A stretch of 28,833 nt of DNA from Octopus sinensis (lineage: Eukaryota). Positions 1 to 28,123 of this stretch are shown in pieces. The stretch covers positions 1 through 28,833 of the forward strand of contig NW_021827543.1 in NCBI RefSeq assembly GCF_006345805.1, given 5' to 3'. How positions within the stretch are numbered: the stretch's first letter is position 1; every line of letters starts with the position of its first letter. The notes below the pieces were generated by a model. That model worked only from the letters and a program-made list of their open reading frames with translations. It had not been told where the DNA came from and searched no databases. A program made the translations under genes and the position numbers.

Positions 1-335
1 CATTCAAACGCATGGCTGGGAACTGCTGCCACACCTGCCGTACTCTCTTGATTTGGCACCAACGGATTTTCACCTCTTTCGATCTCTTTCAAATGCTATG
101 CGCGGAGTTTTGTTCAATACTGATGCAGAATTGAGAGCTTGGCTGGAACAATTTTTCGAGTCGAAATCGAGTGATTTCTACCAACGAAGTATTGAAAATC
201 TTGTTGAACGTTGCGAAGAATCTGTAAACAATGAGGGTGAATACATTATTGATTAATTAATTGTTATTTTTTTTAATTAAACCTTTTAAGAAAATTAAAT
301 TTTAAAAAACGGCAGGAACTTAGTTGCCAACCCAA
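1..335 (+). mobile_element. 3' end of a mariner (Tc1/mariner DD34D) transposon: transposase C-terminus plus right TIR
   Basis: The frame from position 2 reads GWELLPHLPYSLDLAPTDFHLFRSL...GEYIID* (stop at 256), matching mariner HPPYSPDLAPSDYHLF. The TIR at 304-335 has reverse complement TTGGGTTGGCAACTAAGTTCCTGCCG, resembling mellifera-subfamily TIRs. The P-to-L changes in the YSPDL motif suggest decay. Confidence 0.9.
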
Positions 336-800
336 AATGTATGTGTATATTTTGTATGCACGTTTTCGTATTTTTTATCTACTCCTTGTAGACTGTGAGG
401 ATTGTATACGTGAAGGATAGGTAGGGGTTATGTGTGTGAGTGAGTTAGTGTATTTATCGATGCTTATCTAACAATATCATAATTGTCAATTTTAATTAAC
501 TCACTCGCTATCGAAATAGTTAAAAGATTATATCTAAATGCTATTTCCAAGGAAAATAAACGCATAACTTCCATTCTATTTCAAATTAAAGCTACAAGCA
601 GCATTATTAACGCAACAAAATAGTCCCAACAGAACAATCTCTAAAAGCGCAAACCATTGATTTTTACAAATTTAAAATACGTAAATAGAAGACATGTTTA
701 CAAAAACATAAGTATTATGTTTAATGTTTACTCGTTAAGTTGTGCTTGATACAGCCACAATATGTGAAGAAATATTTTTCTTTAAAATTATCTATTTACA

Positions 801-998
801 GAGATGTACTTGCATAGCATGTGACCTGATCTGAGATCGTGTGCTTGAACGAAAACAATTGCAGCGTGGAAGGAGTTTATAAGCCATTTAAGAAACACAC
901 AAAAACCCTTAGATTCACTTCAACATTTAAATTTAATTTGTCAAAATATTTTCGTCGCTTTGATACCGCGACCTGTTAAGACAAAATTTCGTGTTGCA
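801..998 (-). mobile_element. Single arm of fold-back element family F1 with a hammerhead-like motif (937-985, minus)
   Basis: Homologous to both arms of 16779-17035 and ends at the equivalent of that element's palindrome centre. Confidence 0.75.
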
Positions 999-1405
999 TA
1001 TCTATTTGCAAAAACAAAATAACTTAGGAAAAGATAATGGTGCAAACCTAAAGTCAAATTTGAGACGTTCGAGAGCATTTGGATGTGAGAATACCTACCG
1101 ATGCGGAAATAATCCCAAGACAATATTCTCCAAAAGCGCATGCATTTCTGCGTTGTTCTGCTTCGTCAACTACAAACACCAAATGTTGTCCGTCGCAGCC
1201 CAATGAGGACGAATTCATTCTTAATAGAACAGCATGTGGTACGTTTGTTAATGAGGGTACTGCTAAAATATTGATGCTGTCTATTGCTTTTCGTATCGCT
1301 ACCGTCTACACGATCTATGTGACTTCCTCAGTCGGTTAAGTATATTGTCATTTTTATATTGTCATTCGTTAGTCTTTTAGCGCTTGTGATTAATAAAGAA
1401 ATTAA

Positions 1406-3401: not shown

Positions 3402-4045
3402 TACGAGGGTGGACTGAAAAGTTTATAAACTAACTATGAAAGGGTGATGTTGGAGCTGTGCAATCTTCCAAGCATTAATTTCAGCTCTTCTTATTAATAG
3501 CTACATTGTTTCTTTCCAGGTAAACCGATTGTTCAAAGACTTCAAAAGTAACTAGTAGCGACTTCTCTTAAAAATCGATAAAATTTAGTATCGTGGTATT
3601 ATCAAGTACTTGCAGAAAAAGGGTTTTGTTGTTTGTTCCTTCTCGAGCCACATCTGGCTCATAAGACCCGGTTTCCCGGTTTTCTTGGAGTATAGGTTCC
3701 CCACCTGGACGGAACGCCGGTCCGTCGCAGGTGAGCAGCAAGATGCAGGAGTAAAGAATGAGAGAAAGTTGTGGCGAAATAGTCAGCAGAAGTTCGCCAT
3801 TACCTTCTGCCGGAGCCGTGTGGAGCTTAGGTGTTTCGCTCATAAACACACACATCGCCCGGTCTGAGATTCGAACCCACGATCCCTCAACCGCGAGTCC
3901 GCTACTCTAACCACTAGGCCAGGTGCCTCCACAGAAAAACGGTTTAACCCCTAAGGATATTCATGCTGACGTGGTTGCTACAATTAGGGGCTGGACGCTC
4001 CATCTTAATTCAGCACTGCAAAAGTGGGCAGCTAAATTAAGACAA
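3402..4045 (+). mobile_element. Decayed 5' part of a second mariner element (TIR plus N-terminal HTH), interrupted by a SINE
   Basis: It begins TA-CGAGGGTGGACTGAAAAGT, like a mariner TIR. From 3574 it reads (I)DKI*YRGIIKYLQKKG, then after the SINE LTPKDIHADVVAT...QKWAAKL, matching the mariner N-terminus pattern RxVIKF...GLTPKEIH...TVxKW. The start codon is lost and there are a stop and frameshifts. Confidence 0.75.
3627..3931 (-). mobile_element. tRNA-derived SINE, family A, full length with 14-bp TSD
   Basis: On the minus strand: A box TGGCCTAGTGG, B box GGTTCGAATCT, and a 3' tail GGCTCGAGAAGGAACAAACAACA. TSD is CAGAAAAAGGGTTT (3613-3626) / CAGAAAAACGGTTT (3932-3945). It aligns end to end with 10161-10464. 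Confidence 0.92.
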
Positions 4046-9727: not shown

Positions 9728-10586
9728 CAGTGACTGGTTGCATCTGTTAAGGGAACATGATGAAGATTATCTATTAATTCAAACCAACTATTTTCTAAAT
9801 CTCCGAAACGAAGCCTCATATCATATGTACAATTTACAATATTCAATGACAAGTCACAACATAGCGGGCCTGTTACGCATGACAGAGAACAGATACCAGT
9901 GGCGACATTGCAGACTACGAAAGTGTCTACAATAGCAACCCAGCGACTGGTTGCATCTGTTAAGGGAACATGGTGAAGATCTATTAATTCAAACCAGCTA
10001 TTTTCTAAATGTCCGTAACGGAGCCTCATATCATATGTACAATTTAAAATGCTCAATGACAAGTCACAACATAGCGAGCTTGCTACGCATGATAGAGAAC
10101 AGAGACCATTGGCGACACTGGTTACAAAAACGTCTACAATGACAACCCAGCGACTGGTTGGGGGCACATGGCCCAGTGGTTAGAGCAGCGGGCTCGCGGT
10201 CGAGGGATCGAGGGTTCGAATCTCAGACCGGCCAATGTGTGTGTTTATAAGCAAAACACCTAAGCTCCACGCGGCTCCGGCAGAAGGTAATGGCAAAACT
10301 TCTGCTGACTTTTTCGCCACAACTTTCTCTCACTCTATGGTCCTGTATCTTGCAGCTCACCTGCGACGGACCGGCGTCCCATCCAGGTGGGGAACCTATA
10401 CGCCAAGAAACCGGGAAACCGGCCCTTATGAGCCAGGCATGGCTCGAAAAGGAACAAACAACGACAGCGACTGGTTGCAGCCGTTAAGGGGACATGGTGA
10501 AGATTATCTATTAATTCAAACCAACTATTTTCTACACCTCCATAAAGAAAGCCTCATATCCTATGTACGATTTAAAATGTTCAATG
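9728..10586 (+). repeat. Tandem repeat of about 210 bp (about 2.6 units), third unit split by SINE A
   Basis: Units start CAG(T/C)GACTGGTTG at 9728, 9941 and 10148/10465 and share TATTAATTCAAACCA and GCCTCATATC. The third unit stops at TTCAATG (10586). Confidence 0.9.
10161..10464 (+). mobile_element. tRNA-derived SINE, family A, full length with perfect 13-bp TSD
   Basis: A box TGGCCCAGTGG and B box GGTTCGAATCT. TSD CAGCGACTGGTTG at 10148-10160 and 10465-10477. Confidence 0.92.
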
Positions 10587-15143: not shown

Positions 15144-15325
15144 TTCTTCTTTTATTCTTTTACCTGTTTCGGCTTTTAATCGAGCAAATCGACCCCAGAA
15201 CTTATTCATTGTAAGCGTAGTATTTATTCTGTCGGTCTCTTTGGCCGAACCGCTAGAATCCGGGAACGTAAACACACCAACATCGGTTGTCAAGCGATGG
15301 TGAGGGGACAATCACAAGCACACGA

Positions 15326-15358
<33 letters not shown>

Positions 15359-15360
15359 AC

Positions 15361-15401
<41 letters not shown>

Positions 15402-15603
15402 GTGTGTATGTATGCATGTATGTATATATACTACGGGCTTCTTTGAGTTTCCGTCTACCAAATTCACTCACATGGCTTTGGAAGTAGACACTTCTACTAT
15501 AGCCCAAGGTTACAGTATAAGATATTTGCTCAAAGTATCACGCAGTAGGATTGAACCCGAACCCATGTGGTTGGGAAGCAAGTTTCTAACGACACGGCCA
15601 CTC
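15144..15603 (-). mobile_element. SINE family B (CORE-like, internal microsatellite), diverged copy
   Basis: Homologous to the copies at 15662, 26033 and 27506 (CGAGCAAATCGACC, TTTCCGTCTACCAAAT, TGAACCCGA). Confidence 0.85.
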
Positions 15604-15661
15604 ATATGTGCCTACATACATATATGCATGCAATTATATATTTATATATATTTTTTCTTTT

Positions 15662-16023
15662 TCTTTCTTTTACTTGTTTCAGTCATTTGACTGCGGCCAT
15701 GCTGGAGCACCGCCTTTAGTCGAGCAAATCGACCCCGGGACTTATTCTTTGTAAGCCCAGTACTTATTCTATCGGTCTCTTTTTGCCGAACCGCTAACTG
15801 ACGGGGATGTAAACACACCAGCACACAAACACACACACATAAATATATATATATATATACATATATACGACAGGCTTCTTTCAGTTTCCGTCTACCAAAT
15901 CCACTCACAAGGCATTGGTCGGCCCGGGGCTATAATAGAAGACACTTGCCCAAGGTGCCACACAGTGGGACTGAACCCGGAACCATGTGGTTGGTTAGCA
16001 AGCTACTTACCACACAGCCACTC
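15662..16023 (-). mobile_element. SINE family B
   Basis: Minus-strand head GAGTGGCTGTGTGGTAAG...GGTTCAGTCCC, CORE-like CCTTGGGCAAGTGTCTT, internal (TA)/(TG) tract, and tail GACTGAAACAAGTAAAAG. Confidence 0.9.
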
Positions 16024-16083
16024 ATGTATATATATATATATAGGTTGAAAAAAGATTAGAGATCTATAGAAATCAAATTTTTA

Positions 16084-16778: not shown

Positions 16779-17035
16779 GCAATTGTAGCGTGGAAGGTGT
16801 TTATAAGGATTTAAGAAACACGCAAATCCGTTAGATTCACTTCAACATTTAAATTTAATTTAACAAAATATTTTCGTCGCTGTGAAACTGCAACTTTTTC
16901 ACTGACAAAATTCCGTGCTGCACGGAATTTTGTCAGTGAACACCTCGCGGTCTCAAACCGACGAAAATAGGCTGCAATTGATTTCGTTCCAGCACACGAT
17001 CTCAGATCAGGTCACTTGCTATGCAAGTACGTCTC
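16779..17035. mobile_element. Fold-back element F1, probably Penelope-derived, with two outward-facing hammerhead-like motifs
   Basis: Perfect 21-bp arms at 16898-16918 and 16920-16940 around a single T. The right arm has an internal deletion relative to 801-998. It is flanked by (TA)n. Confidence 0.75.
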
Positions 17036-17057
17036 CTATATATGTATGTGTATATGA

Positions 17058-25300: not shown

Positions 25301-26032
25301 CATAATTATAAAAAAACACGGTTACAGAATAGAAAGCAGAATACTGGAAGACATTTGACTCTAACTTAAATGAATAAACAAATAAAATAAATAAATAAAC
25401 AAACAAATAAAACAAAAGCTCAGTATATAATAATTTACAGTATCAAGTGTAACAACAGCTACGTCACACCGCATATGATTATTATAACAAGTTGAGCTAA
25501 GACTCATACACGCCAGTATAATACATTTATGAAACTTGTTTCCAAAATAAACCACCAAGACGCGCATATAAGAAAGCAAGATTAGTACATTCTACTAAGA
25601 CCACAAATTGACTATTTTCTTATAAGAAAACCAATTAAACTATCTAAGAATACGAAGGTCTCAGATCAACGTTACGTGATTATACAAAAAAAAAATTACT
25701 TCAGGTCTAAAGGAGGTTTGAACTCAGCAATAAATTCTGGAGTCTCGAAGCAAATCAGATTGTCGTTCAACTATCTAGAAATAGCTCCCAAATTTCTTTC
25801 TGGGCATACTCTACTATCTTATGGAAAGGAAGGGGACATTGGACAGTGTCGTATTGAGTACATTATAAAATCGTTTGAGTAGTCAAAGTTGGATGGAGCA
25901 CTTTTGGTCATAGATCCTGGGTGATCGGGGATTAAACTGGAGATAGTCAACAATTCACGTCAGTGTCAAACCACCCAGAATCTGGAAACCGGGTACAATT
26001 TTAAAACCAATCGACGCAGGATCACACAGAAT

Positions 26033-26457
26033 ACTCTTTTAGTCTTTTACTCTTTTACTCTCTTTTACTTGTTTCAGTCATTTGACTGCGGCCATGCTGG
26101 AGCACCGCCTTTAGTAGAGCAAATCGACCCCAGGACTTATTCTTTGTAAGCCCAGTACTTATTCTATCGGTCTCTTTTGCCGAGCCGCTAAGTTACGGGA
26201 CGTAAACACACCAGCATCGGTTGTCAAGCAATGCTAGGGGGACAAACACAGACACACAAACACACATACACACATATATATATATATATATATATAATCA
26301 TATATACGACAGGCTTCTTTCAGTTTCCGTCTACCAAATCCACTCACAAGGCATTGGTCGGCCCGGGGCTATAGCAGAAGACACTTGCCCAAGATGCCAC
26401 GCAGTGGGACTGAACCCGGAATCATGTGGTTGGTTAGCAAGCTAATTACCACACAGA
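26033..26457 (-). mobile_element. SINE family B
   Basis: Same head, core and tail as the other copies, with a (GAGTAAAA)n tail. Confidence 0.9.
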
Positions 26458-27385: not shown

Positions 27386-27505
27386 TTTACACTCTAAATA
27401 GACAAGAAATAAACTGGAATATCAGATGAGAGCTGAAGATAGATTACCAAAAAACGCACCACGGGAAGGAACCAACATGGGCATTTTACGCACAGATATT
27501 CGATA

Positions 27506-27918
27506 TACTCTTTACTCTCTCTTTTACTCTTTTACTTGTTTCAGTCATTTGACTGTGGCCATGCTGGAGCACCGCCTTTAGTCGAGCATATCGACCCCGG
27601 GACTTATTCTTTGTAAGCCCAGTACTTATTCTATCGGTCTCTTTTGCCGAACCGCTAAGTGACGGGGACATAAACACACCAGCATCGGCTGTCAAGCAAT
27701 GCTAGGGAGACAAACACAGACATACAAATGCATACACACATACGTACATATATACGACAGGCTTCTTTCAGTTTCCGTCTACCAAATCCACTCACAAGGC
27801 ATTGGTCGGCCCGGGGCTATAGCAGAAGACATTTGCTCAAGATGCCACGCAGTGGGACTGAACCCAGAACCATGTGGTTGGTTAGCAAGCTACTTACCAC
27901 ACAGCCACTCCTGCGCCT
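27506..27918 (-). mobile_element. SINE family B, full length
   Basis: Head AGGCGCAGGAGTGGCTGTGTGG and (GAGTAAAA)n tail. Very similar to 26033-26457. Confidence 0.9.
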
Positions 27919-28123
27919 ATATATGCCTAAATATATATGCCTAAATATCATATTCCTCCTAGTTCAACTTTGCAGAAAACAAACGACCAAGACAGGTGTA
28001 TGAACAACAAGCACGTTTGTTCTCACTGTCCTGTTCTTGTTACCTCTTTCACCCTCCACAAAAAAATCCCAAATTTTATTTAACTTGCTTTGCGGGAAGG
28101 ACTGTTTCAAGGAAGTCGCGTAT

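What the first reader, a model, noticed from the sequence alone, without database searches (positions are those of the whole stretch)
16859..16969. Hammerhead-ribozyme-like family with a compensatory G3-C8 core swap, arranged back-to-back in a palindromic element
Seen: three copies (937-985 minus, 16859-16909 minus, 16929-16969 plus) give the majority consensus UUUGUCA-GUGAACA-N-GUCGC-(9-nt loop)-GCGAC-GAAA-AUAU-UU-UGACAAA. This has type I hammerhead topology: a 7-bp helix I, a 5-bp helix II, GAAA, a palindromic helix III (AAUAUU) and a UUU cleavage triplet. Established: the canonical core is CUGANGA with a C3-G8 Watson-Crick pair, and Penelope-like elements carry minimal hammerheads with palindromic helix III that cleave as dimers. 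Here the core reads G3-U-G-A-A-C8-A, so both partners are swapped, and there is an extra nucleotide between A9 and helix II. Inference: the ancestral element encoded a functional non-canonical hammerhead that CUGANGA-based searches would miss. Each individual copy here is mutated, and the consensus rests on only three copies.
Basis: partly seen in the sequence, partly recalled or inferred. Interest (0 to 1): 0.8.

Follow-up and report, generated by a model that had tools for sequence, protein, structure and literature searches.

The report
Octopus retroelement hammerhead with swapped core
A small RNA motif repeated thousands of times in an octopus genome is the hammerhead-ribozyme fold at the end of a Penelope-like jumping gene, with its key core base pair flipped from C-G to G-C, a natural form I could not find in print; it likely still cuts itself weakly, which is untested.

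Summary
Observation confirmed and extended. The three motifs lie in decayed copies of a ~206-nt repeat (4,589 exact matches of one 28-nt anchor). In an unbiased sample G3 stands in 68 and C8 in 64 of 70 arms, none reads CUGANGA, and 32 of 70 keep the full hammerhead descriptor; none of the three window copies does. The repeat is the pseudo-LTR of a Penelope-like retroelement: it follows an RT + GIY-YIG ORF in 24 of 30 loci and holds the ORF's first 30 codons. Two sister families carry the same fold at the same place with C3-G8 and U3-A8 cores; 99 of 99 cells pair and 6 of 11 pairs change on both sides. An unrelated family has A3-U8. The extra nucleotide, palindromic helix III and inverted pairs are known PLE traits; the back-to-back layout is an integration by-product that would mask the ribozyme. 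New: the natural G3-C8 core, known to me only as a laboratory rescue mutant. Cleavage is untested, and no copy starts at the cut site.

The parts
796..998 (-). Solo pseudo-LTR copy (pLTR positions 5-206, long 'tailed' end at 796)
   Evidence: 93-97% identical to the best genomic copies
937..985 (-). Hammerhead motif, copy 1, decayed (2-nt loss and G5>U in the core)
796..887 (-). First 30 codons of the retroelement ORF (ATG at 887), inside the pLTR
   Evidence: frame continues into the RT-EN ORF at the tandem junction in L298
796..855 (-). 'Tail': ~57-60 nt between the short and the long 3' end
   Evidence: bimodal 3' ends
789..797 (+). 9-bp direct repeat flanking copy 1 (second copy 999-1007); likely target-site duplication
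   Evidence: not general in the family (3 of 18 solo copies)
999..1007 (+). Second copy of the 9-bp flanking repeat
16780..16922 (-). Short (tail-less) arm of the head-to-head pLTR dimer, pLTR 5-147, ending in (TA)n
   Evidence: L001
16859..16909 (-). Hammerhead motif, copy 2, decayed (C8>A, helix I mismatches)
16916..17036 (+). Long (tailed) arm of the dimer with an internal 79-nt deletion (pLTR 59-137)
   Evidence: L001: q5-58, q138-203
16929..16969 (+). Hammerhead motif, copy 3: intact G3 (16936)-C8 (16941) core, no cut site or 3' helix I strand

Best explanation
These are decayed pseudo-LTR copies of an octopus Penelope-like retroelement (reverse transcriptase + GIY-YIG endonuclease) whose pseudo-LTR carries a minimal type I hammerhead fold with a G3-C8 core pair, which likely still self-cleaves weakly after UUU when two same-sense copies pair through AAUAUU or the element's protein assists. 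The pseudo-LTR is likely the capped 5' end of the transcript (motif at +20 to +66, ORF start at +116). Reverse transcription likely starts inside the RNA at two sites (+147, +206) and runs to the cap, which gives the thousands of short copies; priming on both target strands likely gives the head-to-head dimers with one long and one short arm. The copies were made from uncleaved RNA, so cutting is likely a side or regulatory reaction, not a step of insertion.
For: Shown: pLTR 0.84-1.23 kb behind the ORF, same strand, in 24 of 30 ORF loci (24 of 27 that reach the C-terminus; one partial; three on C29 may be duplicates); GIY-YIG over the Pfam cut-off, RT by BLASTP to a Pfam RVT_1-positive element, E 9e-8 and Atlas clusters at 0.97; pLTR runs into the ORF. 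Sister family B (55% aa) has C3-G8 in 15 of 16 motifs, family C (49%) U3-A8 in 21 of 23, a 42% metagenome relative the canonical CUGAAGA. A+B+C: 99 of 99 cells paired, 6 of 11 pairs changed on both sides, slid controls 30-50%. Two subfamilies of family A differ at 5 of 9 loop II positions and 0 of 38 core/stem positions (P 8e-5). 3' ends: 52 long, 41 short, 1 other of 94; 18 of 19 inverted pairs are long+short. 16 of 21 free 5' ends carry a G that the master lacks. No other letter above 5% at G3 or C8 in four runs of four further coded organisms. Literature: C3G/G8C partly restores a PLE hammerhead, RT starts internally at two sites and extends both strands, uncleaved RNA is the substrate (PMC11167929); the G:C swap is the only rescuing double mutant in the core (PMC9901934).
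Against: No cleavage assay. 0 of 94 arms start at positions 54-65, around the cut (61/62). Minimal PLE hammerheads show low or no activity alone (PMC4209133). UUU is a poor triplet (recalled). Sister family B has C at position 9, a sign that the core may be relaxed in this clade. Covariation rests on three families, not nine independent rows. Core+stems versus the rest of the pLTR is not significant (0/38 vs 14/159, P 0.08), and individual copies decay no slower in the motif (2.3-2.7% vs 1.8%). The 5' boundary also looks like a 3' splice site.
Confidence: 0.75

Rival explanations
1. The motif is a true hammerhead homolog that has become catalytically silent or negligible and is kept as a structural or protein-binding RNA element in the 5' UTR; the 3-8 pair is kept for shape only.
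For: No genomic 5' ends at the cut site; sister family B lacks A9; hammerhead mutants do not impair insertion of the anole element in vitro (PMC11167929); Naiads thrive without canonical hammerheads (PMC8557442).
Against: All other catalytic positions (U4, G5, A6, G12, A13, A14, A15.1-U16.1, H17) are invariant over three families whose proteins are ~50% apart; the 3-8 pair forms in the active conformation (recalled); the anole motif also leaves no trace in reads yet cleaves with protein (PMC11167929).
Confidence: 0.2
2. The palindrome itself is the functional unit: a fold-back DNA element (MITE- or Helentron-like), or a pair of hammerheads that act together.
For: Many copies are 270-295-nt near-perfect palindromes in AT-rich or (TA)n sites; 6-bp complementarity between the two ends of the monomer and a small hairpin near one end.
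Against: 42 of 94 arms have no adjacent inverted arm; arms are variably 5'-truncated; pairs are asymmetric long+short; the same sequence is the terminus of an RT-EN element; inverted 5'-truncated copies with a one-sided tail are the described PLE pattern (PMC8557442); read-through RNA buries both motifs in one hairpin, -233.5 kcal/mol.
Confidence: 0.03
3. The hammerhead likeness is chance in a young repeat family with little internal variation.
For: Within family A nearly all variation is neutral decay, mostly at CpG; no compensatory pair change inside the family; no Rfam hammerhead match.
Against: The same fold at the same position in two sister families and a metagenome relative, two of them with published core types; Rfam also misses the canonical minimal motif in L316.
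Confidence: 0.02

Closest known systems
Minimal type I hammerheads (min-HHR) in the pseudo-LTRs of metazoan Penelope-like elements (Cervera & de la Pena 2014, PMC4209133)
   Same: Type I topology, G10.1-C11.1, one extra nucleotide between 9 and 10.1, palindromic 15.2-16.2/loop 3, place in the pLTR, mostly solo or opposite-strand pairs; a natural U3-A8 core variant is described there.
   Different: Core pair is G3-C8, which that paper's main text does not report; helix I is 7-8 bp rather than 4-5; triplet is UUU.
Poseidon element of the green anole (PAc; Frangieh et al. 2024, PMC11167929)
   Same: Hammerhead and ORF start within the pLTR; two internal RT starts that define the tail; first start ~85 nt behind the cut site in both; AT-rich targets; no RNA or genomic ends at the cut site.
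   Different: PAc has natural C3-G8 and G3-C8 only as an engineered partial rescue; its ORF starts inside the hammerhead, here 55 nt behind the cut; tail here ~57-60 nt against 30-40; different clade (CxxxCxxC linker, long RT insertion).
Neptune / Nematis clades of EN+ PLEs (Craig et al. 2021, PMC8557442)
   Same: C-terminal GIY-YIG with CCHH, CX2-5CxxC linker (short, as in the Nematis rows of their Fig. S2), (TA)n targets, tandem and inverted insertions.
   Different: RT motif B reads GGAIGVGIAG rather than G.AMG; motifs A and B are 132 aa apart against 63 in the Neptune-type elements of the same genome; far from those on the tree. Clade not assigned.
Animal non-LTR retrozymes (bioRxiv 10.64898/2026.07.22.740005)
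   Same: Short non-coding PLE-derived units with a type I hammerhead.
   Different: Retrozymes are head-to-tail tandems; these copies are solo or head-to-head and begin upstream of the ribozyme, not at its cut.

Membership tests
PLE minimal type I hammerhead | Helix I closing the motif and helix II with G10.1-C11.1 | tested here: met
   MFE of intact copy; pairs kept with double changes across families
PLE minimal type I hammerhead | Literal core consensus CUGANGA | tested here: not met
   56 of 70 arms read GUGAACA, none CUGANGA; filed as a core variant, as U3-A8 motifs are
PLE minimal type I hammerhead | Watson-Crick pair between positions 3 and 8 | tested here: met
   G-C, C-G and U-A in families A, B, C
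PLE minimal type I hammerhead | U4 G5 A6, A9, G12 A13 A14, A15.1-U16.1, H17 | tested here: met
   all present in family A; sister family B has C9
PLE minimal type I hammerhead | Extra nucleotide between 9 and 10.1; palindromic helix III/loop 3 | tested here: met
   extra G; AAUAUU palindrome in 63 of 70 arms
PLE minimal type I hammerhead | Located in the pseudo-LTR of a PLE | tested here: met
PLE minimal type I hammerhead | Site-specific self-cleavage (as dimer or protein-assisted) | not testable with these tools
   only assembled contigs were offered, no raw RNA reads; no genomic 5' ends at the cut
Rfam Hammerhead_1 (RF00163) | Covariance-model match | tested here: not met
   no hammerhead row at E<=10 in three loci with copies, nor for the canonical minimal motif in L316; no family copy was the match among the 30 of 65 genome hits fetched
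EN+ Penelope-like elements | Single ORF with RT and C-terminal GIY-YIG (CCHH) | tested here: met
   1042-codon open frame in L296; GIY-YIG 24.5 bits over cut-off 22.6; RT motifs. Pfam gave no hit on the 982-aa query
EN+ Penelope-like elements | Pseudo-LTRs, inverted 5'-truncated copy, one-sided tail | tested here: met
   L208, L209, L298, L299; 18 of 19 pairs long+short
EN+ Penelope-like elements | Retained intron near the pLTR | tested here: inconclusive
   branch-point-like CTAAC, pyrimidines and AG precede the pLTR in the master, but free copies share only one G upstream; no spliced joint seen
Nematis or Neptune clade | CX2-5CxxC linker before the GIY-YIG domain | tested here: met
   CQSNCAVC in the ORF
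Nematis or Neptune clade | Grouping by RT phylogeny with named members | tested here: inconclusive
   no named reference in the tree; RT motif B and A-B spacing differ from the published rows
Non-LTR retrozyme | Head-to-tail tandem units each with a hammerhead | tested here: not met
   solo or head-to-head copies; same-sense neighbours were larger segmental duplications

The most novel reading that the evidence does not exclude
The first natural, active G3-C8 hammerhead, in a genome whose Penelope-like families use all four Watson-Crick pairs at positions 3-8 (C-G, U-A, G-C, A-U). The pair is then freely exchangeable in evolution, and many retroelements scored as 'lacking a hammerhead' may carry one that CUGANGA-based descriptors cannot see.
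Probability: 0.45. Interest if true: 0.7.

Novelty: new variant of a known kind. Interest (0 to 1): 0.58.

Why it matters
The C3-G8 pair was found by crystallography and tested by swap mutants; natural covariation that I found in print stops at U3-A8. One octopus genome supplies G3-C8 and A3-U8 as well, three of the four pairs within one clade of orthologous motifs: a natural rescue experiment for ribozyme structure-function work. It shows that hammerhead censuses built on CUGANGA undercount PLE ribozymes, which bears on claims that some PLE clades lack them. The thousands of short copies also record, in vivo, the two internal RT starts and two-strand priming measured in vitro for the anole element, and show that inserted copies come from uncleaved RNA.

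Tried and rejected
Rfam scan of the window: only microsatellite-driven miRNA matches among the 150 of 320 rows shown. Sequence beyond copy 1 (990-1390) is an unrelated older repeat, not part of the element. BLASTN of the monomer against 30 GIY-YIG loci, mostly Neptune-type, was blank; the partner was found through anchor matches 2.7-2.8 kb apart. A 4-kb same-sense array on C1 proved a segmental tandem without a PLE ORF. Fourteen near-identical copies (L057-L077 set) sit inside a younger composite repeat and were left out of counts. Loci L078-L107 were selected on a pattern containing the core and were not used for core frequencies. Target-site duplications are not general: 3 of 18 solo copies, shuffled mean 0.36, maximum 3. 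RNA evidence: three runs guessed to be RNA and one metatranscriptome hold the repeat as contigs only; no ends, strand or splice joint can be read. No relatives in viral contigs; no PDB match. Two-molecule folding gave a strand-swapped helix I, not the helix III dimer, which 2D folding cannot show. One alignment had wrong coordinates and MAFFT misaligned L316; neither was used. Lunse et al. 2017 and Przybilski & Hammann 2007 are not held, so they could not be checked for natural G3-C8.

Full report
Observation. They belong to one repeat: 796-998 on the minus strand, and a head-to-head pair at 16780-17036 whose long arm lost pLTR positions 59-137. Each window copy is broken: copy 1 in the core, copy 2 at C8 and helix I, copy 3 in helix II and by loss of the cut site; none passes a full descriptor.

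The family. The own genome (2.72 Gb; an octopus by inference, since a protein named as Octopus vulgaris matches the sister family's ORF nearly letter for letter) holds 4,589 exact matches of a 28-nt anchor outside the motif, control 0. I read the arms at the first 100 matches: 98 arms, 94 after removing four duplicates. Of 70 that cover the core, 56 read GUGAACA; G3 stands in 68, C8 in 64, C3 in 1, G8 in 1. Thirty-two of 70 keep core, helix I, helix II, GAAA, palindrome and UH together. An intact copy folds as predicted. Runs of six coded organisms hold the repeat, and four runs of four organisms show no other letter above 5% at G3 or C8.

What the repeat is. [quoted passage not shown] In 24 of 30 ORF loci the repeat follows the stop at 0.84-1.23 kb on the same strand. 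One locus has a 1042-codon open frame. At a tandem junction the repeat runs into the ORF, whose ATG is at pLTR position 116, so window 887-796 are the first 30 codons. This is the pseudo-LTR of an endonuclease-bearing Penelope-like element. Its 3' ends fall in two classes, 52 long and 41 short of 94, and 18 of 19 inverted pairs join a long and a short arm (32 of 39 in the first, selected set): the one-sided tail and inverted copy described for PLEs (PMC8557442, passages). Clade is open: linker as in Nematis, but RT motif B differs and motifs A-B are 132 aa apart against 63 in Neptune-type elements here.

Is it a hammerhead? Inside family A there is almost no covariation, only decay. Relatives supply it. 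Family B (55% aa) has the motif at the same place with C3-G8 in 15 of 16 cases, but C at position 9; family C (49%) has U3-A8 in 21 of 23 loci with the motif, of 30 fetched; a 42% metagenome relative has canonical CUGAAGA with an extra nucleotide and palindromic helix III. Over A, B and C, 99 of 99 cells pair, 6 of 11 pairs change on both sides, and position 3-8 shows three pair types; slid controls pair 30-50% (A with B). These are three lineages, not nine rows. The tree puts A as sister to B+C; with the C-G outgroup, G3-C8 is likely derived. Two subfamilies of A differ at 5 of 9 loop II positions and none of 38 core and stem positions (P 8e-5); against the rest of the pLTR the contrast is not significant (P 0.08). 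An unrelated Neptune-type family has an A3-U8 core (489 matches within one mismatch) with a G-C/A-U exchange in its helix I, so all four Watson-Crick pairs occur in this genome.

How it likely works. Shown: 61 of 94 arms reach pLTR positions 1-8, 12 of them with the master's upstream sequence; 16 of 21 free ends at positions 1-2 carry a G where the master has T or C (7 of 9 without an inverted neighbour); none starts at 54-65. Inferred: the pLTR is the capped 5' end of the RNA and the G is the copied cap (recalled from LINE elements); RT starts internally at +147 or +206 and copies to the cap, as the anole protein does in vitro, where it also extends both target strands and uses uncleaved RNA (PMC11167929, parts 1-2 of 4 read). 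Two-strand priming then explains the long+short head-to-head dimers. The palindrome is a by-product: its two motifs are on opposite strands and read-through RNA forms one hairpin. Cleavage would need two same-sense copies paired through AAUAUU, or the protein. I put activity at about 55-60%: the double swap partly rescues a PLE hammerhead (PMC11167929) and is the only rescuing double mutant of the core in a full pairwise scan (PMC9901934, passages), but minimal hammerheads are weak (PMC4209133, parts 1-2 of 4 read), UUU is a poor triplet (recalled) and family B lacks A9. The upstream boundary also resembles a 3' splice site, as in Drosophila Penelope (PMC4209133; PMC2377424, passages); this stays open.

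Against what is known. The extra nucleotide, palindromic helix III, opposite-strand pairs and U3-A8 are in PMC4209133; U3-A8 also in PMC3088659 (section 8 read). Searches for G3-C8, GUGANCA, C3G/G8C, A3-U8 and octopus hammerheads returned G3-C8 only as an engineered variant (PMC11167929; PMC3884650, passages; PMC9901934). I could not see Lunse et al. 2017, Przybilski & Hammann 2007, or any figure alignments, and did not open the supplement of PMC4209133, so an earlier natural case is not excluded. Rfam misses the motif. The scan's own notes had nothing on this sequence.

Verdict. Real, and now anchored by an autonomous partner and cross-family covariation. A new core variant of a known kind of ribozyme in a known kind of element; catalysis untested. 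Interest 0.58.

Noticed in passing
L126 / L257:5879-5922 (G000:C12:56456886) and L348-L359: Neptune-type PLE family whose pLTR hammerhead has an A3-U8 core, a 2-bp helix II and ACCGGU helix III; 489 matches within one mismatch; helix I shows a G-C/A-U exchange between copies. The link to the GIY-YIG ORF was seen in one locus.
   Followed up: partly
L300:5863-5913 (family B): Sister-family hammerhead has C instead of the conserved A9 in all 16 motifs read, with an otherwise canonical core; a natural A9C variant worth assaying.
   Followed up: partly
L296 ORF, RT motifs A-B: Families A and B have ~69 extra residues between RT motifs A and B, where telomerase and Naiad RTs have the insertion-in-fingers domain, although the endonuclease is C-terminal; Pfam RVT_1 does not detect this RT. 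Possibly an unnamed PLE clade; 28 database relatives at 30-53% identity.
   Followed up: partly
L089:1328-1533 (pLTR 1-10, 138-143, 197-202): The 5' end of the pLTR RNA is complementary to both the short and the long 3' end sites, which may position the two RT starts.
   Followed up: no
L115, L121, L122, L137, L141, L146-L175: Further PLE-type hammerheads in the genome: U3-A8 in three Neptune-type families, C3-G8 in others, including a large canonical family with the same two-ended anatomy.
   Followed up: partly
L057-L077: A partly deleted palindromic copy has been captured and re-amplified inside a younger composite repeat (shared flanks in 14 independent loci).
   Followed up: no
window 2-256 and 308-335: C-terminal fragment of a mariner-like transposase with its terminal repeat (motif recalled; no Pfam hit).
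   Followed up: no
window 15172-16037, 26031-26456, 27505-27938; 3628-3931 with 10159-10462: Several copies of another abundant ~400-nt interspersed repeat, and a 300-nt inverted pair 6.2 kb apart.
   Followed up: no
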